Positions 36,001-42,000 of a stretch of DNA of 64,000 nucleotides are shown one piece after another (the stretch's first letter is position 1; each line of letters starts with the position of its first letter). The stretch lies in contig OZ249438.1 in the NCBI GenBank assembly GCA_965235115.1, forward strand, positions 12,400,001 to 12,464,000. The letters are read 5' to 3'. The position numbers were made by a program. This stretch comes from Laetmonice hystrix. Lineage: Eukaryota.

Positions 36001-39000
36001 AAGCCTCGTGTTCGTTCAATGGTTCCGACCGCCATCATCCGCCAACAGCCAATCCAAACGTGACGTCAGCAAACATTTCACGTCACGTGTTGCGAACCTA
36101 TGACGCACAGTACAAAACGTCATCCAATGTTGAGATGGGATACCTCGCTATGGGACTGTTGTGTATTCCCTGCGCTCTGCTATACCTCGCCACGTATTGT
36201 GCTTTTCACAATAAAAGTCAGAAACGGCCCTCTACGTCCAAAATGGCGAAAGAAAAACGAGGCAAAAAGTACTTCTGCCGTGAACTCGTAATAATCGCTC
36301 TACTTTTCTGTTTCTTCACGTTGTACGTGGCGCAGGAAGTGACGTATGGCGGATACGTGTTTTTGTACGTCACGCGCGCTCTGTGCTGGAGCAACGCGCA
36401 CGGCGCCATGCTGACGTCACTGTTCTGGGCAGCCGTCGGCATTGGTCGGATTCTAAGCGTTCCCTTCTCCGTGTGGTTGGTCCCTATCCAGATGGTCATC
36501 TGTGATTTGGTCCTTGTGTTTTCTGGACTGCTGGTCCTACTTTTCTCAGCGCACCTACACGACGTGATACCATGGGTCGCGACGGCGCTGGCCGGACTTG
36601 GCATGTCAACTTTGTATCCTTCCGCCTATCTGTGGATCTCGCAGCGAGTGAAGGTAGCTGGGTTTGCCACGGGAGTGTTCCTTGTCGGTGGTTCCATGGG
36701 AGCCATGGTTGTCCCACCAGTCACGGGAACACTGCTTCAGAACTGGACGCCATTCTCGTTCGGCTATATGATGTTTGGTGTGAGCACTACAGCGACTGTG
36801 TTGTTTTTAATCGCCTTTTGTTACGAACGTAGATTTATTTCGACACAACACAGTAAAGTAAGTGAATGTTTGAAAGAGGAGGATGTTAAAAACGCAAAGA
36901 AACTTATGTCGGACAATGTTCATATGATCTAGTCATCGTCTTATCCTTATACATATAAATTGAGGCGTCTATGTGTCGAAGAGAATATGTAGGCCTATAT
37001 AAAATTTAGTACAAGTATTGTTTGTTAGTTTCCTTATTGATTTAGGCCTACATTAAATATGATTTATTTATATGGTAAGCACGTAAAACCCTTACAATAA
37101 AGGTTGTTTACTTGTCCTAACGTTATTGTTTATTGAGAGGGGGGTTATGTGTTCTCATTATGGTCCGGTGTCAATAGACTATATACTCTCTCCCGCTAGA
37201 GTGGAAACAATGCCGGTGTCATGGTTACTGGCGATAACATCTCAGTTTTGATTCACAGCCAACCGAAATCTTGTAGAGTTGAAAGTTCCCTTCACATTGT
37301 GTTCAGGGGTAGGTAACAAAGCAAGTCAGCTACAAACGCTCCTTACCCCCCCCCCCCCGCCCCCTCAGTCACTGCTCAGTGGAGCTGGGGTTACAGAAAA
37401 ATGACGTAAAGATTAAAAGTTCCTTTCGATAGCTATTAAACGTTCATTTTTTATAGCAAATAAGCTTTGGGATACATTTAGGAATAGCTTGCGCAATCCA
37501 ACGGTCAATGGCAAAATAATCTATTGAGGAATTTTTTATTGATTGAGCTGTGCTGTCTGCCCGGCCAAGTTCAGTATCGATTGGCATGCAGCGAGGAAGC
37601 CTAGCGACCGGCATTGTTTGGGTCAGGTTGTAAATTATCTCAATCTATTGCCATGCAACCTTTTCAACATAAGGCAACGACGAACCCGCAATCTATAACT
37701 GACAATACTATACCACGTTATACCATCCACATTCAAACATTATGTGTTGTCTACATCATAATGTGGGCGGTATACCACCAGCTTGATGTCAAGGAAAAAT
37801 TCCCAGCAGGAAGCAGGTAATCCAATGACGCATACAGCCACCATTCGTCAGCAATCCAATTTTCAGCGGGTTGTTGTGTAAACGGATCGATTAACTTTAT
37901 TAAAAATGTATAAGGTCCCGGACACAGCAAAAGGAACGAAAGAATCCATAATGTGTGGCAGTTTCTTCCGGGGAAATTTTTACGGAGTCAGAGTGTGGTT
38001 GGGGATTCCGGTGATGGTGAACGTTGAGGCTGGGATAGAGCAGAATTATCCATACGTTCCCGGATGTGAGGATATTCAGAATGGATTACCCCAACGGACG
38101 GGTGATTACTGCTCCATGGGACCTGGTGGTCAGTAACCTTTAGCCGTGTCTGTGTGGTTTATATAGGACTAAACACAAAGAACTCATCAAAACGACGACC
38201 AGTCATCTGTGACAATCGTTCAGCTTCATAGCTTCCGGGGACAATAATCCTCGGACCATAATTTGGTTGAATTTCGGTAACTTTTGGTTACAAGACGTAT
38301 CATCATCAATGGATCGATCCCCTGTTAAAACATTAAGGCAAGTTTGCAAGTCGCAAGATTTCATTATACAGAGGAAGCATTGAAAACTGTGGTTAAGAAC
38401 ATTGAAGACATTGTAAATATCAGACATGGCGAGGGGTGGTCAAAGTGATAACAGGGTTCGCCCGATAGACCTGAGATCAGTCGAGATTCGTCAGGACTAC
38501 GTCCTCTCCATGGCCTGTTACGACGACTACTTCCAGGCCATACGAATGGACAACGACCGACTCTTCAAGATGTCGCTAGCCGTCGGCAACACGGACGTCA
38601 TGCTCAACGGCATATTCAGCTTTACCTACGGGAGATGGGAATCATCTGTGAGGTTTTCCGTCGACCGTCCGTTCTGCCTTGCTGCAGTATGCAGTTCGCT
38701 CAACGTCTTGGAGCAAATGCTGAAATTTGGCGCCAAAGTCCGTGTGCAGACGACACACGGACATAACGCCCTCCACGCCGTCATTCAAGCCGCGGCCATT
38801 GACGAATCCCTAGAGAAAGAACTCATTGTGGTCTGTGCATTCTTGGCGAGGAATCTGGAGCCAGATGATTGGAAGGCATTGCTTGAAGCGGAAGAAAGAG
38901 GCGGGATGCGACCCTTGGAGTATGCGGCAAAGAAGGGCACGTTAGGAATCTTTCACCAACTTTTCAGAACGAGTACAAACATCATGGAGTTCAGTCGACT

Positions 39001-42000
39001 TGGGACGAACTTTCTTGCATCATATGATCTTTCCGATTACGAATCTTACAGCCAAGGGCACAGACATAACAAATCGCCGTTACTGTCTCTGGCGCGATTG
39101 GCTAAGGGGAAGGAATCCAACGTGTATGCCAGCGAGTTATTTACGGATCCAACCATAGCGATCTGGATTCGCAACAAGGTGTTATGCAATGCTCCGTGGC
39201 TTGTACTATGGTTTTTTCTACGGGTAATATATGCGTTTCTCGTTATATACAGTTGGTTTGGCGTGTACGGATTTGGAGATTCTGGTGGCGAGGATGTCCC
39301 GAGTGATGGCACGGAGGATGAGAACGTCACTGGACTCTTACCGTTAAACTTACCCGACTGTATCAGCAACTGCCACAGTTTCCCATTCACACGAGCAAGC
39401 GCTTTGAAGGCCGCGCTCGCCCTTTCGGCTATTTCCTTTCTGGTTGATTTCATCGAGTCAGCGATTGTCCTATGGAACTATTGCCGACCTCGCCAGAGGT
39501 TCGTCAGGACACCCATTGTTCTTGGTGGCCTCAGCACAGCACTTGTCTACAGAACAGGTCATTTCTGTCTAACCGTCTGCGTTCCTGTCTATTATCTTTA
39601 CCTTTCCCGAGTCAGTAGAGAAACTCGTAGTCAGTACCAAATATACTATCTCTCGGTCGTCTATGCTACATGTGCATTATTCGTGTCAATATCATTTGGA
39701 TATTTTGTGCAACTTTTTCCAGTTATCGGCCACTTGCAAATGCTTTGTGCCCGTCTTTTGGCATTGACACTTAAAATGGTGTGTGTGTTTGTGATATATT
39801 TGACTTTCTATACGTTTGCGCTGGGATCTTTACTGAGACTGTATCAGACACCAGGAGACACAGGTAACAATCCGTCCTACGCAGCGTTCAAACTGCTGCT
39901 GAACCAGTACAGTCTGGATGAGGTCACCACAAACGGCGGCCATATGCTCGTGTTTTTCCACGTTACGTTCTACTGCGTGACGACATTTCTCCTGCTGCAC
40001 TTTTCCATCGGAATCGTCGTGAACGCTGTGACGTCACTGGTTCATGTGCTGAACGTCATCACGAGTGTGGAACTACTGAACGCTGCGTGCCTGGTCGAGA
40101 CGCGCGTGAGCTGGCTCCTGGGGAAACTTTACGGACCCCTTCAGCAGCTGGTTTATACTCTCGAAGGTGGCCGCGTCTTTCTGAATGTTTTAGTTCCCGA
40201 CGCAGGTCTTCCCAAGGAATTTATGTCCTGGATGTATAAGTAATTTGCTTTCCAGATCGACCGTTAACCGCGCCATGCACACAGCCCCTTGCCCTCAAAC
40301 ATGAACGACCTGGCCGTTGCATGAGCGGCATAAATTCTATTTCAGGGTCGACAGCCCACTAAAACTAGGCTGTCCCAAGAGCTTTGCCATGTTTGCTTTT
40401 TGGGTTCACTTATTTTAGACTTTGCATCTCCATTTATCGCTGTGATTATATATTAAGCCACCTTTGAGGATGAAGGTTTAATACAGGTTAACTAGCTTGA
40501 TGAATAGTTTAACTCAAGCAGGCTTGCAGGCCAGTGCTAACGAGTGGAGTGTCTCACTGTAATGTTTAAAGTAATCATTACTGAAGCATAATGCATTTTT
40601 TTGCGACCGAGTCCAAATGATACATTGTTTCAGCAGTCACATGCAGCAGTGTGGTAAAATGAATATTGCATGACGGAGCGAGATCGACAGATACCAAGCC
40701 GTATATGCACTCGACCACGCCTCGAGCACAACAATCGTGCCATGCAAACCTCCTGACCTTGCGCTGTCATGCAATATACCAGCTTTGAAAGTTCACCGTG
40801 TATCTCCCATGGACTTGAACGAGTTCAACGCCATCCATGTGTGTATTTCAATCATCCTAGTGATCGTATGTGATAATGAACAGAACACAAATCCACCAGT
40901 TCACTGTTAGTTAAACTGTATTATATAGTGTTAAACAGTACCCAGACCCATCGACACGTGTAAGAGATTGGTATAACGATGGATGCGGTCCACAGGCACA
41001 TGTGTGCAGACGTGCTTTAGTTTACGTAAACAATATAAAAAGTAACTTGCGCGCCAGTAACATCTGTATTGGATGGTGTCATCTATACAGCAGTTCACAT
41101 TACATAAAGAGCGCGTATTATAAAGACTGAACTATAAGAGAATTTTATTTGTTATATAAGTCAAACTATGAAACTTTTCTACTGTTATGTCATTGTCTTT
41201 ATGTTATATAACGTTTCTAAGATAGCCTTTCACTCCCTGGGTTGCATCAGAAAAGAAAAGAAAATATGAAATTCATATTTTTACCATTTTTTCTCAAAAT
41301 GTTGGACCGGAGTAATAGATATGGCCTTGTTGTAATGTATTAGAAGAAAGATCTAAGTCAGGAGCTGACCTGAAGAACATCGATCGTCCCGTGAGATTGT
41401 AAAATGATAACGTCTAATATACATCAGGCGTAACGTGCAGCCTTCGCTCATTTTTAGCCATGTGCGAGCTTTCACCCTACAGGTAAACATTCGAATCGGT
41501 TTGCGGTGTTTTTCTCGTCAATATCCACAATTATCACGTGCAAGTCATCCACACACGAGGCAGATATAGAGGGAGGGTTTGGAGGGAGGGGGTGGAGTTT
41601 TACCCACGTGGGAAACATGAACACCACGACCGCCTGGCATTGGGAGGCGGTCCGAGTGCGAGCCGTTATCTACGAGGCATATTGCCGAATAATTCCCTGC
41701 TGCGATGTTGCTTTCATCTGCTGGGCGTAATAAGAAAACCATCAACGACCAGGGAGGCATCTCTCCATATTTCTTCAAGTCGTCCCAACGCTGCAATTTG
41801 GCGTGTCGCACCCCTTGCCCTGGCCTTGCAGGAGGCTGGTGCTTTCATTGGCGTGACTGCATTCTTGTCCTGAGGTCGATGGAAACCGACACTTGCATAA
41901 TACGCACTGCGCCTGCATGTGCTCCAGGATCACTTCCATGGCCTTTGGGGATCGCAAGTTCAATGCAACATGTAAATGTACATAGAGCCCAGCAGCAAGT

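What the first reader, a model, noticed from the sequence alone, without database searches (positions are those of the whole stretch)
38426..40243. Intronless, highly divergent TRPV-like channel with an altered S6 gate motif
A single-exon 605-aa ORF sits among intron-rich neighbours. It has few ankyrin repeats, six TM segments, a short pore loop and a very short C-terminus with no recognisable TRP box. Where TRPV/TRPA channels have the conserved S6 motif LLNxLIAxM, it reads LLLHFSIGIV (Asn to His). This suggests unusual gating, pH or metal sensitivity, or a non-conducting subunit. It may belong to the poorly characterised TRPVL group reported from annelids and cnidarians, or to a lineage-specific retroposed expansion of sensory receptors. 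No function is known to me.
Basis: partly seen in the sequence, partly recalled or inferred. Interest (0 to 1): 0.65.

Follow-up and report, generated by a model that had tools for sequence, protein, structure and literature searches.

The report
Divergent ankyrin-repeat TRP-like channel gene
A real, uninterrupted 605-codon gene encodes an ankyrin-repeat, six-helix membrane protein that looks like a very divergent TRP-type sensory ion channel, but its subfamily and the meaning of its odd pore-lining motif could not be settled with the tools available.

Summary
The ORF is real and sits exactly where stated: 38426..40243 (+), 605 aa, with an in-frame stop 3 codons upstream. That makes 608 open codons, against a maximum of 187 in 200 shuffles. 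It has 3 clear and 1 degenerate ankyrin repeats, six hydrophobic segments plus a pore-helix-like segment, a short S5-S6 span and a short C-terminus. The string LLLHFSIGIV lies at residues 522-531.

The TRP assignment rests on three things:
- the domain architecture;
- weak matches to the TRPV4 ankyrin domain (E=0.0097);
- protein-language-model neighbours (0.98 whole protein, 0.94 membrane part).

HMMER finds nothing for the membrane domain, either in Pfam or among all PDB chains. Single-sequence AlphaFold models were too poor to use (pLDDT 42 and 53).

The 'Asn to His' reading is the best register under published spacing rules. It matches only 3 of 6 positions, and 2473 of 5000 shuffles do as well.

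The gene fails the TRPV-defining features. It fits the published 4-ankyrin, 6-TM format of TRPVL/Trpw channels, but no phylogeny was possible. Verdict: a genuine, very divergent TRP-like channel gene of an invertebrate-type genome. Interest is moderate to low until homologues, expression and currents are examined.

The parts
38426..40243 (+). Complete 605-codon ORF plus stop (protein P0001).
   Evidence: 608 open codons against a shuffle maximum of 187.
38414..38416 (+). In-frame TAA three codons before the ATG. It limits any N-terminal extension within this exon.
   Evidence: An in-frame upstream ATG at 38309 is followed by stops.
38160..38165 (+). The only TATA[AT]A match in the 1 kb upstream of the ATG. 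It is a possible core promoter; this is inference only.
38513..38995 (+). Cytosolic ankyrin-repeat region, residues about 30-190. Three clear repeats lie at about 78-111, 112-159 (long insert) and 160-190. One degenerate repeat lies at about 30-60.
   Evidence: Ank_2 covers 85-180 and Ank_5 covers 153-175. DARPins match at E=2.5e-9, and the TRPV4 ankyrin domain matches at E=0.0097 over residues 72-182. Repeat boundaries are my reading of the sequence.
39164..39265 (+). Pre-S1 Trp (W247) and S1 (about 257-280).
   Evidence: Hydropathy 252-281. Helix 257-280. Landmarks W247, F264 and F271.
39266..39394 (+). Long acidic S1-S2 loop (281-323) with the sequon N300-V-T and two Cys. Presumed extracellular.
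   Evidence: The topology is inferred.
39395..39718 (+). S2 (324-351), a basic S2-S3 loop, S3 (about 366-393) and S4 (406-431, no K/R).
39719..39844 (+). S4-S5 linker with G435, and S5 with Y462 at +27.
   Evidence: The spacing rule comes from Table 1 of PMC9242649.
39875..39922 (+). Pore-helix-like segment (484-494, with F488) and a putative filter (495-499) ending in D498-E499. No Gly lies between F488 and D498.
   Evidence: Helix 483-492. Sequence. The role is inferred.
39941..40045 (+). S6 (about 506-540). It contains LLLHFSIGIV (522-531, window 39989-40018), H525 (codon CAC, 39998-40000), I528 and G529. An Asn (N533) lies 8 residues after the His.
40046..40240 (+). Post-S6 helix without a TRP-box Trp, and a short C-terminus (80 residues after H525).

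Best explanation
The ORF is a genuine protein-coding gene whose whole coding sequence lies in one exon. It encodes a subunit of a very divergent group-I TRP-type channel, in the neighbourhood of the TRPV, TRPVL/Trpw and TRPA subfamilies.

Shown:
- the open frame;
- an N-terminal domain of 3 clear and 1 degenerate ankyrin repeats;
- six hydrophobic helices with an uncharged S4;
- a short re-entrant pore segment;
- a short C-terminus.

Inferred from what is established for TRP channels:
- Four subunits surround a central cation pore.
- The ankyrin domain and the post-S6 helix are cytosolic.
- The long, acidic, glycosylatable S1-S2 loop faces outside.
- D498/E499 form the outer acidic ring of the pore.
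- I528 forms the lower hydrophobic constriction in S6.
- Gating is by a ligand or physical stimulus rather than by voltage.

The pore lacks the usual filter glycine. It also lacks the usual S6 Asn-x-Leu and the TRP-helix Trp. Permeation and gating are therefore likely to differ from those of TRPV and TRPA channels.

The gene body keeps its CpGs (observed/expected 1.06), while the neighbouring kinase gene is CpG-depleted. This suggests cell-type-restricted rather than broad, germline-active expression. That is an inference from the general pattern of gene-body methylation in invertebrates.
For: - ORF: 608 open codons against at most 187 in 200 shuffles, plus GC asymmetry by codon position.
- Language-model recognition is 2842, above the 2300 mark.
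- Whole-protein Atlas neighbours score 0.98 with 207 of 256 shared features. All ten best hits that carry a family share a family or clan (Ank plus ion-transport TRP clusters).
- The membrane part alone (residues 245-605) scores 0.94 with 198 of 256 shared features, to Ion_trans/YVC1_C/PKD_channel clusters. The tool counts these two searches as one source of evidence.
- Ankyrin matches are reported.
- TRPV4 ankyrin-domain chains match at E=0.0097 and E=0.12-0.13, in one continuous stretch across the atypical long repeat. They are the only channel proteins among the 60 rows shown in each call.
- Landmarks fit the spacing rules of Table 1 of PMC9242649: W247, F264 to F271 (+7), G435 to Y462 (+27), and F515 ten residues before position 525, followed by I528 and G529. 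F488 in the pore helix is my own reading.
- S4 has no K/R.
- The 4-ankyrin, 6-TM format is reported for Trpw/TRPVL proteins (PMC11979771, passages).
- Nothing suggests upstream coding exons. No ankyrin-like frame lies between the upstream gene's stop (36932) and the ATG, and open stretches there are at most 85 codons. The upstream gene has its own AATAAA at 37096.
Against: - No Pfam Ion_trans or any other channel family matches the whole protein or its membrane parts, even at E up to 10.
- phmmer of residues 245-605 against all PDB chains gives 0 hits at E up to 10. The linker region gives only junk.
- Both AlphaFold2 single-sequence models are of low confidence: mean pLDDT 42.4 with pTM 0.26, and 53.2 with pTM 0.33.
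- Foldseek against the PDB gives 0 matches at E<=0.001 for either model. TRPV rows appear only at E 0.2-4.
- The S6 fingerprint match (3 of 6) is reached by 2473 of 5000 shuffles.
- The other aromatic landmarks are easy to find by chance in hydrophobic helices.
- No canonical AATAAA lies within 3.5 kb downstream. The first ATTAAA is at 42658.
- No evidence on expression, conservation or paralogues could be obtained.
Confidence: 0.65

Rival explanations
1. It is a TRP-derived subunit that no longer conducts on its own. It would act as a regulatory or heteromeric partner, or as a protein with a non-channel role, because the conserved pore and gate residues have been lost.
For: - No Gly lies between F488 and D498. 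PMC9242649 reports a filter Gly in 86.3% of TRPs.
- In the best register, the S6 Asn (93.7% conserved), Leu (95.3%) and TRP-helix Trp (93.1%) positions read His, Ser and Thr.
- The membrane domain is invisible to HMMER.
Against: - The register is not secure.
- In the paper's own table, accepted TRP subfamilies also keep only 7-8 of the 12 fingerprint residues: TRPVL 7, TRPS 7, TRPY 8.
- I528, G529 and the acidic D498/E499 pair are retained.
Confidence: 0.15
2. It is an unexpressed or decaying gene copy (a young pseudogene or retrocopy) whose frame happens still to be open.
For: - It is a single exon on its own, with no paralogue in the window.
- There is no canonical poly(A) signal for 2.4 kb downstream.
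- The channel motifs are degenerate.
Against: - 605 codons remain open with a coding-type GC pattern.
- Language-model recognition is high.
- The ATG has G at -3 and G at +4.
- There are no retrocopy hallmarks: no A-run downstream and no flanking direct repeats bracketing the gene among 5 short two-copy families.
Confidence: 0.1
3. It is not a TRP channel. It is an unrelated or unclassified ankyrin-repeat multi-pass membrane protein that only mimics the layout.
For: No sequence-profile or fold-search result at a significant level ties the membrane domain to TRP channels.
Against: - Atlas neighbours of the membrane part alone are ion-transport/TRP-type clusters, at 0.94 with 198 shared features. 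The tool states that shuffles reach 0.9 or more in 4-10 of 100 cases.
- The order of elements fits a 6-TM channel: six helices, a short helix between the fifth and sixth, and an uncharged fourth.
- The TRPV4 ankyrin domain is the best natural PDB match.
Confidence: 0.1
4. The ORF is only the main exon of a multi-exon gene. Further coding exons would lie upstream (more ankyrin repeats) or downstream (a longer C-terminus).
For: - An AG at 38422-38423 just before the ATG could in principle be an acceptor.
- The N-terminus (247 residues before the pre-S1 Trp) and the C-terminus are short compared with the reference channels in Table 1 of PMC9242649.
Against: - The candidate acceptor has a poor pyrimidine tract.
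- Only 1.5 kb separates this ORF from the upstream gene's stop. That stretch holds no ankyrin-like frame.
- The first, degenerate repeat starts about 30 residues after the Met, as expected for a complete N-terminus.
- Published Trpw/TRPVL proteins also have only 4 repeats.
Confidence: 0.1

Closest known systems
TRPVL / Trpw channels. TRP vanilloid-like was first described in cnidarians and annelids. It was extended to vertebrates and renamed Trpw in PMC11979771.
   Same: - N-terminal ankyrin domain of about 4 repeats plus 6 TM.
- No Trp at the TRP-helix fingerprint position; the TRPVL consensus there is Ala.
- Only about 7-8 of the 12 fingerprint residues are kept.
- Atlas neighbours include a mollusc 'TRPV3-like' cluster and a 677-aa chordate ankyrin/ion-transport cluster of similar size.
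   Different: - The TRPVL consensus keeps the S6 Asn and reads N-x-F-I-A. This protein reads H-F-S-I-G in the best register.
- No phylogenetic placement was possible.
- Published trpw1 is expressed in olfactory sensory neurons. Nothing is known about expression here.
TRPV channels (TRPV1-6 and invertebrate TRPVA-D)
   Same: - The TRPV4 ankyrin domain is the best natural match among solved structures (E=0.0097).
- The overall order is ankyrin, linker, 6 TM, then a short post-S6 helix.
   Different: - It has fewer ankyrin repeats; six for TRPV is my own knowledge.
- The membrane domain has no HMMER similarity to any solved TRPV.
- In the best register the S6 N-x-L-I-A, the TRP-helix Trp and the filter Gly are absent.
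- The S5-S6 span is 53 residues, against 75 in rat TRPV1.
TRPA1 / TRPA channels
   Same: - An S6 'I-G' pair, as in the TRPA1 fingerprint N-L-I-G.
- No Trp at the TRP-helix position; TRPA1 has Arg.
- TRPA1 has the shortest S5-S6 span of the reference channels (60). This protein is shorter still (53).
- A 'painless-like' TRPA cluster is among the Atlas neighbours.
   Different: - TRPA channels carry many more ankyrin repeats (my own knowledge).
- The S6 Asn and Leu are not kept.
- No sequence-level match was found.

Membership tests
TRP superfamily, group I | Six transmembrane helices with a re-entrant pore helix between S5 and S6, and an S4 without the charges of a voltage sensor. | tested here: met
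   - Hydropathy segments are reported.
- Helices in both models: 257-280, 323-353, 363-393, 398-474, 483-492 and 498 onward. The models are of low confidence.
- S4 has 0 of 26 K/R.
TRP superfamily, group I | Sequence-profile similarity of the membrane domain to ion-transport or TRP families. | tested here: not met
   - Pfam finds no channel family at E up to 10, for the whole protein or for two membrane fragments.
- phmmer of residues 245-605 against the PDB gives 0 hits at E up to 10.
TRP superfamily, group I | [quoted passage not shown] According to PMC9242649, 95% of TRPs keep at least 9. | tested here: inconclusive
   - By the spacing rules, about 8 of 12 can be placed: W247, F264, F271, G435, Y462, F488, F515 and I528. 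G529 would match as in TRPA1.
- The N, L and W positions read H, S and T.
- The S6 block is no better than chance: 2473 of 5000 shuffles do as well.
- No true alignment was possible.
TRP superfamily, group I | Nearest neighbours in protein-language-model feature space are TRP clusters. | tested here: met
   - Whole protein: 0.98.
- Membrane part: 0.94.
-, which the tool counts as one source of evidence.
TRP superfamily, group I | Assembly as a tetramer around a central pore. | not testable with these tools
   See Tried and rejected. This needs a model based on homologues, or biochemistry.
TRPV | S6 N-x-L-I-A and a Trp in the TRP helix 21 residues after the Asn. The TRPV consensus keeps 12 of 12 fingerprint residues. 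| tested here: not met
   The best register reads H525-F-S-I-G, with T546 at +21.
TRPV | An ankyrin domain of six repeats (my own knowledge; not from a call). | tested here: not met
   - Three clear repeats and one degenerate repeat.
- Only 247 residues precede the pre-S1 Trp, against 426 in rat TRPV1.
TRPV | A Gly in the selectivity filter after the pore helix (86.3% of TRPs). | tested here: not met
   No Gly lies between F488 and D498. The position was assigned by eye.
TRPVL / Trpw | Four ankyrin repeats plus 6 TM (PMC11979771). | tested here: met
   The fourth repeat is degenerate and was assigned by eye.
TRPVL / Trpw | TRPVL consensus fingerprint W - N G Phi F W N F I A A. | tested here: inconclusive
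   - Shared: W, G, the S5 aromatic, the pore-helix F, I, and no Trp in the TRP helix.
- Not shared: S6 N (His here), F (Ser here) and A (Gly here).
-.
TRPVL / Trpw | Placement inside the TRPVL/Trpw clade in a phylogeny. | not testable with these tools
- The supplements listing TRPVL/Trpw accessions were closed.
TRPA | TRPA1 fingerprint ...N L I G R, and a long ankyrin array. | tested here: not met
   - I-G is shared; N and L are not.
- Only about 4 repeats are present.

The most novel reading that the evidence does not exclude
The protein founds, or belongs to, an undescribed ankyrin-6TM channel lineage. This lineage would sit beside TRPV, TRPVL and TRPA as an extra group-I TRP subfamily. In it the near-universal S6 asparagine is replaced by a titratable histidine and the filter glycine is lost. 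That would give a pore gated or blocked by protons or transition metals, or one with unusual selectivity.
Probability: 0.12. Interest if true: 0.6.

Novelty: new variant of a known kind. Interest (0 to 1): 0.35.

Why it matters
If the channel is functional, it would be a natural experiment on one of the most conserved positions in 6-TM cation channels. The S6 asparagine is 93.7% conserved in TRPs. It is proposed to rotate into the pore on TRPV1 opening (PMC6219692, abstract start seen). It would also add to the poorly charted TRPVL/'unclassified TRP-like' diversity of invertebrates. As things stand it is one predicted protein with no evidence of expression or conservation, so its weight is modest.

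Tried and rejected
- **AlphaFold2, full length, no alignment:** mean pLDDT 42.4, pTM 0.26. Foldseek against the PDB gave 0 matches at E<=0.001. TRPV4 and TRPV1 ankyrin domains had the highest 'prob' (0.63-0.75), but at E 0.2-0.4. Unusable.
- **AlphaFold2, residues 240-580:** mean pLDDT 53.2, pTM 0.33. Foldseek against the PDB gave 0 matches at E<=0.001. 7 of the 36 rows shown were TRPV3/5/6 chains, at E 1.1-4.1 and prob <=0.06. This is a lead at most.
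- **Complex prediction, 4 copies of residues 430-580:** no verdict, score 0.02 against a mark of 0.32. This is not evidence either way.
- **phmmer against the PDB:** the membrane part gave 0 hits. The linker part gave 2 irrelevant hits. The ankyrin sub-region gave mostly designed repeat proteins, with TRPV4 at E=0.12-0.13.
- **Pfam on fragments:** nothing for the membrane parts.
- **Prokaryotic genome-contig scan with the protein:** 64 pattern matches, 0 confirmed relatives. This was expected.
- **tblastn of the protein against the window:** no paralogue. The best other hit had E=0.96.
- **Search for retrocopy hallmarks:** none found.
- **Alternative S6 register on Asn533:** rejected. It scores at most 1 of 6 and is absent from the top 8 registers, the eighth of which scores 1.
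- **Literature search for intronless TRP expansions:** 1 paper, a general review, not read.
- **Not used:** the phage, plasmid and E. coli collections, which are irrelevant to a eukaryotic gene.

Full report
**Observation.**
- The window holds an ATG-initiated ORF at 38426..40243 on the + strand. It encodes 605 residues (stored as P0001).
- The frame is open for 608 codons, back to a TAA at 38414-38416.
- In 200 shuffles of 36001-42000, the longest open frame was 187 codons and the mean 127. The ORF is therefore not a chance feature.
- GC by codon position is 0.52, 0.39 and 0.56. The ATG has G at -3 and G at +4.
The His codon is CAC.

**Genomic setting.**
- I do not take the window for human. 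CpG observed/expected is 0.66 for the window and 1.06 in the ORF. It is 0.37-0.47 over the kinase gene at the left end. This mosaic pattern is typical of invertebrate genomes (my knowledge).
- The first coding exon of an MRCK-like kinase lies at 11893-12249 on the minus strand. It matches the MRCK alpha chain 4aw2_A at E=1.3e-14. By my count of the printed alignment, about 31 of 57 aligned residues are identical.
- Another kinase-like exon ORF lies at 604-951 on the minus strand (the kinase reading is mine, because Pfam found nothing there). That gene is therefore intron-rich.
- An MFS transporter gene lies directly upstream on the same strand. Its exons lie within 35102-35674 and 35826-36932 (MFS_1 at E=1.7e-5 and 8.8e-14).
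- The MFS gene has a visible GT...AG intron (donor near 35413, acceptor near 35831) and its own AATAAA at 37096.
- I searched these neighbours one exon-bearing ORF at a time. I did not build or search a joined spliced model.
- The 1.5 kb between the MFS stop and the ATG holds no open stretch longer than 85 codons and no ankyrin-like frame.
- There is no paralogue in the window.
- Nothing marks a retrocopy: no A-run or AATAAA/ATTAAA within 2.2 kb downstream (the first ATTAAA is at 42658), and no flanking direct repeats around the gene.

**What the protein looks like.**
- *N-terminus.* Pfam gives only sub-threshold ankyrin matches: Ank_2 over residues 85-180 at E=0.0015-0.007, and Ank_5 over 153-175. 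phmmer against the PDB gives designed ankyrin proteins down to E=2.5e-9.
- *TRPV4 match.* The best natural channel protein in that search is the TRPV4 ankyrin domain, at E=0.0097, matching residues 72-182 to chain positions 133-247. It appears again at E=0.12-0.13.
- *Repeat count.* I read three clear repeats, at about 78-111, 112-159 (with a long insert) and 160-190. A degenerate one lies at about 30-60.
- *Membrane part.* Hydropathy and the secondary structure of both models give S1 257-280, S2 324-351, S3 about 366-393 and S4 406-431. They also give S5 about 441-473, a short helix at 483-492, and S6 from about 506.
- *S4 and loops.* S4 has no Lys or Arg. The S1-S2 loop (281-323) is long and acidic, and carries a sequon at N300 and two Cys.
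- *Spans compared with reference channels.* The S5-aromatic to S6-aromatic span is 53 residues. In the five reference channels of Table 1 of PMC9242649 it is 60-87 (I read section 6 in full). Only 80 residues follow H525.

**Is it a TRP channel?**
- Positive evidence comes from protein-language-model features. For the whole protein the best cluster scores 0.98 with 207 of 256 shared features. All ten best hits that carry a family share a family or clan.
- The clusters shown include an ankyrin/ion-transport cluster, mollusc 'TRPV3-like', a 677-aa chordate ankyrin/ion-transport cluster, 'painless-like' TRPA, TRPC6 and TRPN/NompC.
- For residues 245-605 alone the best score is 0.94 with 198 of 256 shared features, to Ion_trans/YVC1_C/PKD_channel clusters. 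The tool counts the two searches as one source. It states that shuffles reach 0.9 or more in 4-10 of 100 cases.
- Against this, HMMER sees nothing in the membrane domain. No Pfam family matches at E up to 10. There are 0 PDB chains at E up to 10.
- Structure prediction without an alignment failed (pLDDT 42.4 and 53.2). Fold searches with those models gave no significant match.
- The TRP assignment is therefore probable. It is not proven at the level of sequence or structure statistics.

**The S6 motif.**
- Across those channels three spacings are fixed. The S4-S5 Gly to the S5 aromatic is 27-28. The S6 aromatic to Asn is 10. Asn to the TRP-helix Trp is 21.
- I applied these rules to P0001. G435 has Y462 at +27. 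F264 has F271 at +7. W247 precedes S1.
- In S6, the best of 61 registers puts H525 at the Asn position. F515 is at -10, I528 at +3 and G529 at +4; Gly there is the TRPA1 state. Ser is at the Leu position and T546 at the Trp position.
- That is 3 of 6 rule positions. Permuting residues 485-576 gives 3 or more in 2473 of 5000 trials. The register is the best available, but it is not statistically supported.
- An Asn (N533) lies 8 residues after the His. Its register scores at most 1 of 6.
- The statement 'Asn replaced by His' is therefore a reasonable reading, not a demonstrated one.
- What is solid: no register in this S6 shows the N-x-L-I-A block, and no Trp lies at the TRP-helix position. By my reading, no Gly lies between the pore-helix F488 and D498.
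- With permissive placement, about 8 of 12 fingerprint residues are present. In the same table TRPVL keeps 7, TRPS 7 and TRPY 8.

**Comparison with known families.**
- *TRPV:* membership fails on repeat number, the S6 block, the TRP-helix Trp and the filter Gly.
- *TRPA:* membership fails on repeat number and on the S6 Asn and Leu. The I-G pair and the missing Trp resemble TRPA1.
- *TRPVL:* PMC11979771 (passages read) extends this family to vertebrates and renames it Trpw. The paper describes its proteins as 4 ankyrin repeats plus 6 TM, recovers the clade as sister to TRPA, and finds trpw1 in olfactory sensory neurons.
- P0001 fits that format. However, the TRPVL consensus keeps the S6 Asn.
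- Mollusc surveys report further 'unclassified' TRP-like genes near TRPV and TRPVL (PMC12980990, passages). TRPVL also occurs in choanoflagellates and an ichthyosporean (PMC13663828, passages).
- Divergent orphans of this kind are therefore not unusual.
- I could not place P0001 in a tree.

**What stayed unchecked.**
- No eukaryotic collection was available.
These would have listed the Trpw and TRPVL accessions and alignments, and they may bear on membership.
- As a result, paralogue counts, intron status of relatives, dN/dS and expression were all left unexamined.

**Mechanism proposed.**
- I propose a tetrameric, non-voltage-gated cation channel subunit. It would have a cytosolic 4-repeat ankyrin domain and an extracellular acidic, glycosylated S1-S2 loop.
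- D498/E499 would form the outer acidic ring, and I528 the lower hydrophobic constriction.
- If H525 does occupy the Asn position, the role proposed for that Asn in TRPV1 opening bears on it (PMC6219692). So does its conservation across Nav, Cav and TRP channels (PMC5599482). For both papers I saw only the listing and the start of the abstract.
- A titratable side chain there could then make gating sensitive to pH or metals. This is inference only.
- The high CpG content of the gene body suggests restricted rather than broad expression. This is also inference.

**Verdict.**
- The family-level reading (TRP-like, near TRPV, TRPVL and TRPA) is probable.
- The specific claims (TRPV-like, Asn to His, retroposed expansion) are not established.
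- It is a divergent variant of a known kind of channel, of moderate to low interest until homologues, transcripts and currents are examined.

Noticed in passing
window 604-951 (-) and 11893-12249 (-): Exons of an MRCK/CDC42BP-like kinase gene on the minus strand. The N-terminal exon matches MRCK alpha and beta chains at E=1.3e-14 to 2.7e-13. The exons lie more than 10 kb apart. The gene body is CpG-depleted, with observed/expected 0.37-0.47.
   Followed up: partly
window 15044-16690 (-): A 548-codon open frame with a reverse-transcriptase domain (RVT_1, E=6.5e-34). It is probably a non-LTR retrotransposon copy. A 139-bp tandem duplication adjoins it at 14858-15130.
   Followed up: partly
window 17671-17742 (-): An Rfam tRNA match just above threshold (31.8 bits against 29). 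ARAGORN does not call it. It may be a tRNA-derived repeat or a pseudogene.
   Followed up: partly
window 35102-36932 (+): A major-facilitator transporter gene directly upstream on the same strand (MFS_1). It has one visible GT-AG intron of about 420 bp and an AATAAA at 37096. It shares the CpG-rich (about 1.0) domain with the channel gene.
   Followed up: partly
window 43847-49539 and 52529-53563: A dense block of GC-rich minisatellites. Their periods are 28, 22 and 59 bp, with up to 35 copies at 93-95% matches. A G/T-rich array has periods of 6 and 107 bp. These create long spurious ORFs on both strands.
   Followed up: partly
window 21910-22287, 27906-28583, 31234-33265, 33388-34067, 1-720: Further tandem arrays with periods of 25, 77, 70, 34 and 51-68 bp. 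The window is unusually rich in minisatellites.
   Followed up: no
window 63044-64000 (+): A frame that stays open to the end of the window. It has a poly-Glu run and Ser/Thr/Pro/His-rich low-complexity sequence. It has no Pfam match and is unexplained.
   Followed up: no
window 5329-5480 and 61619-61763: Two runs of N. They were left as they are.
   Followed up: no
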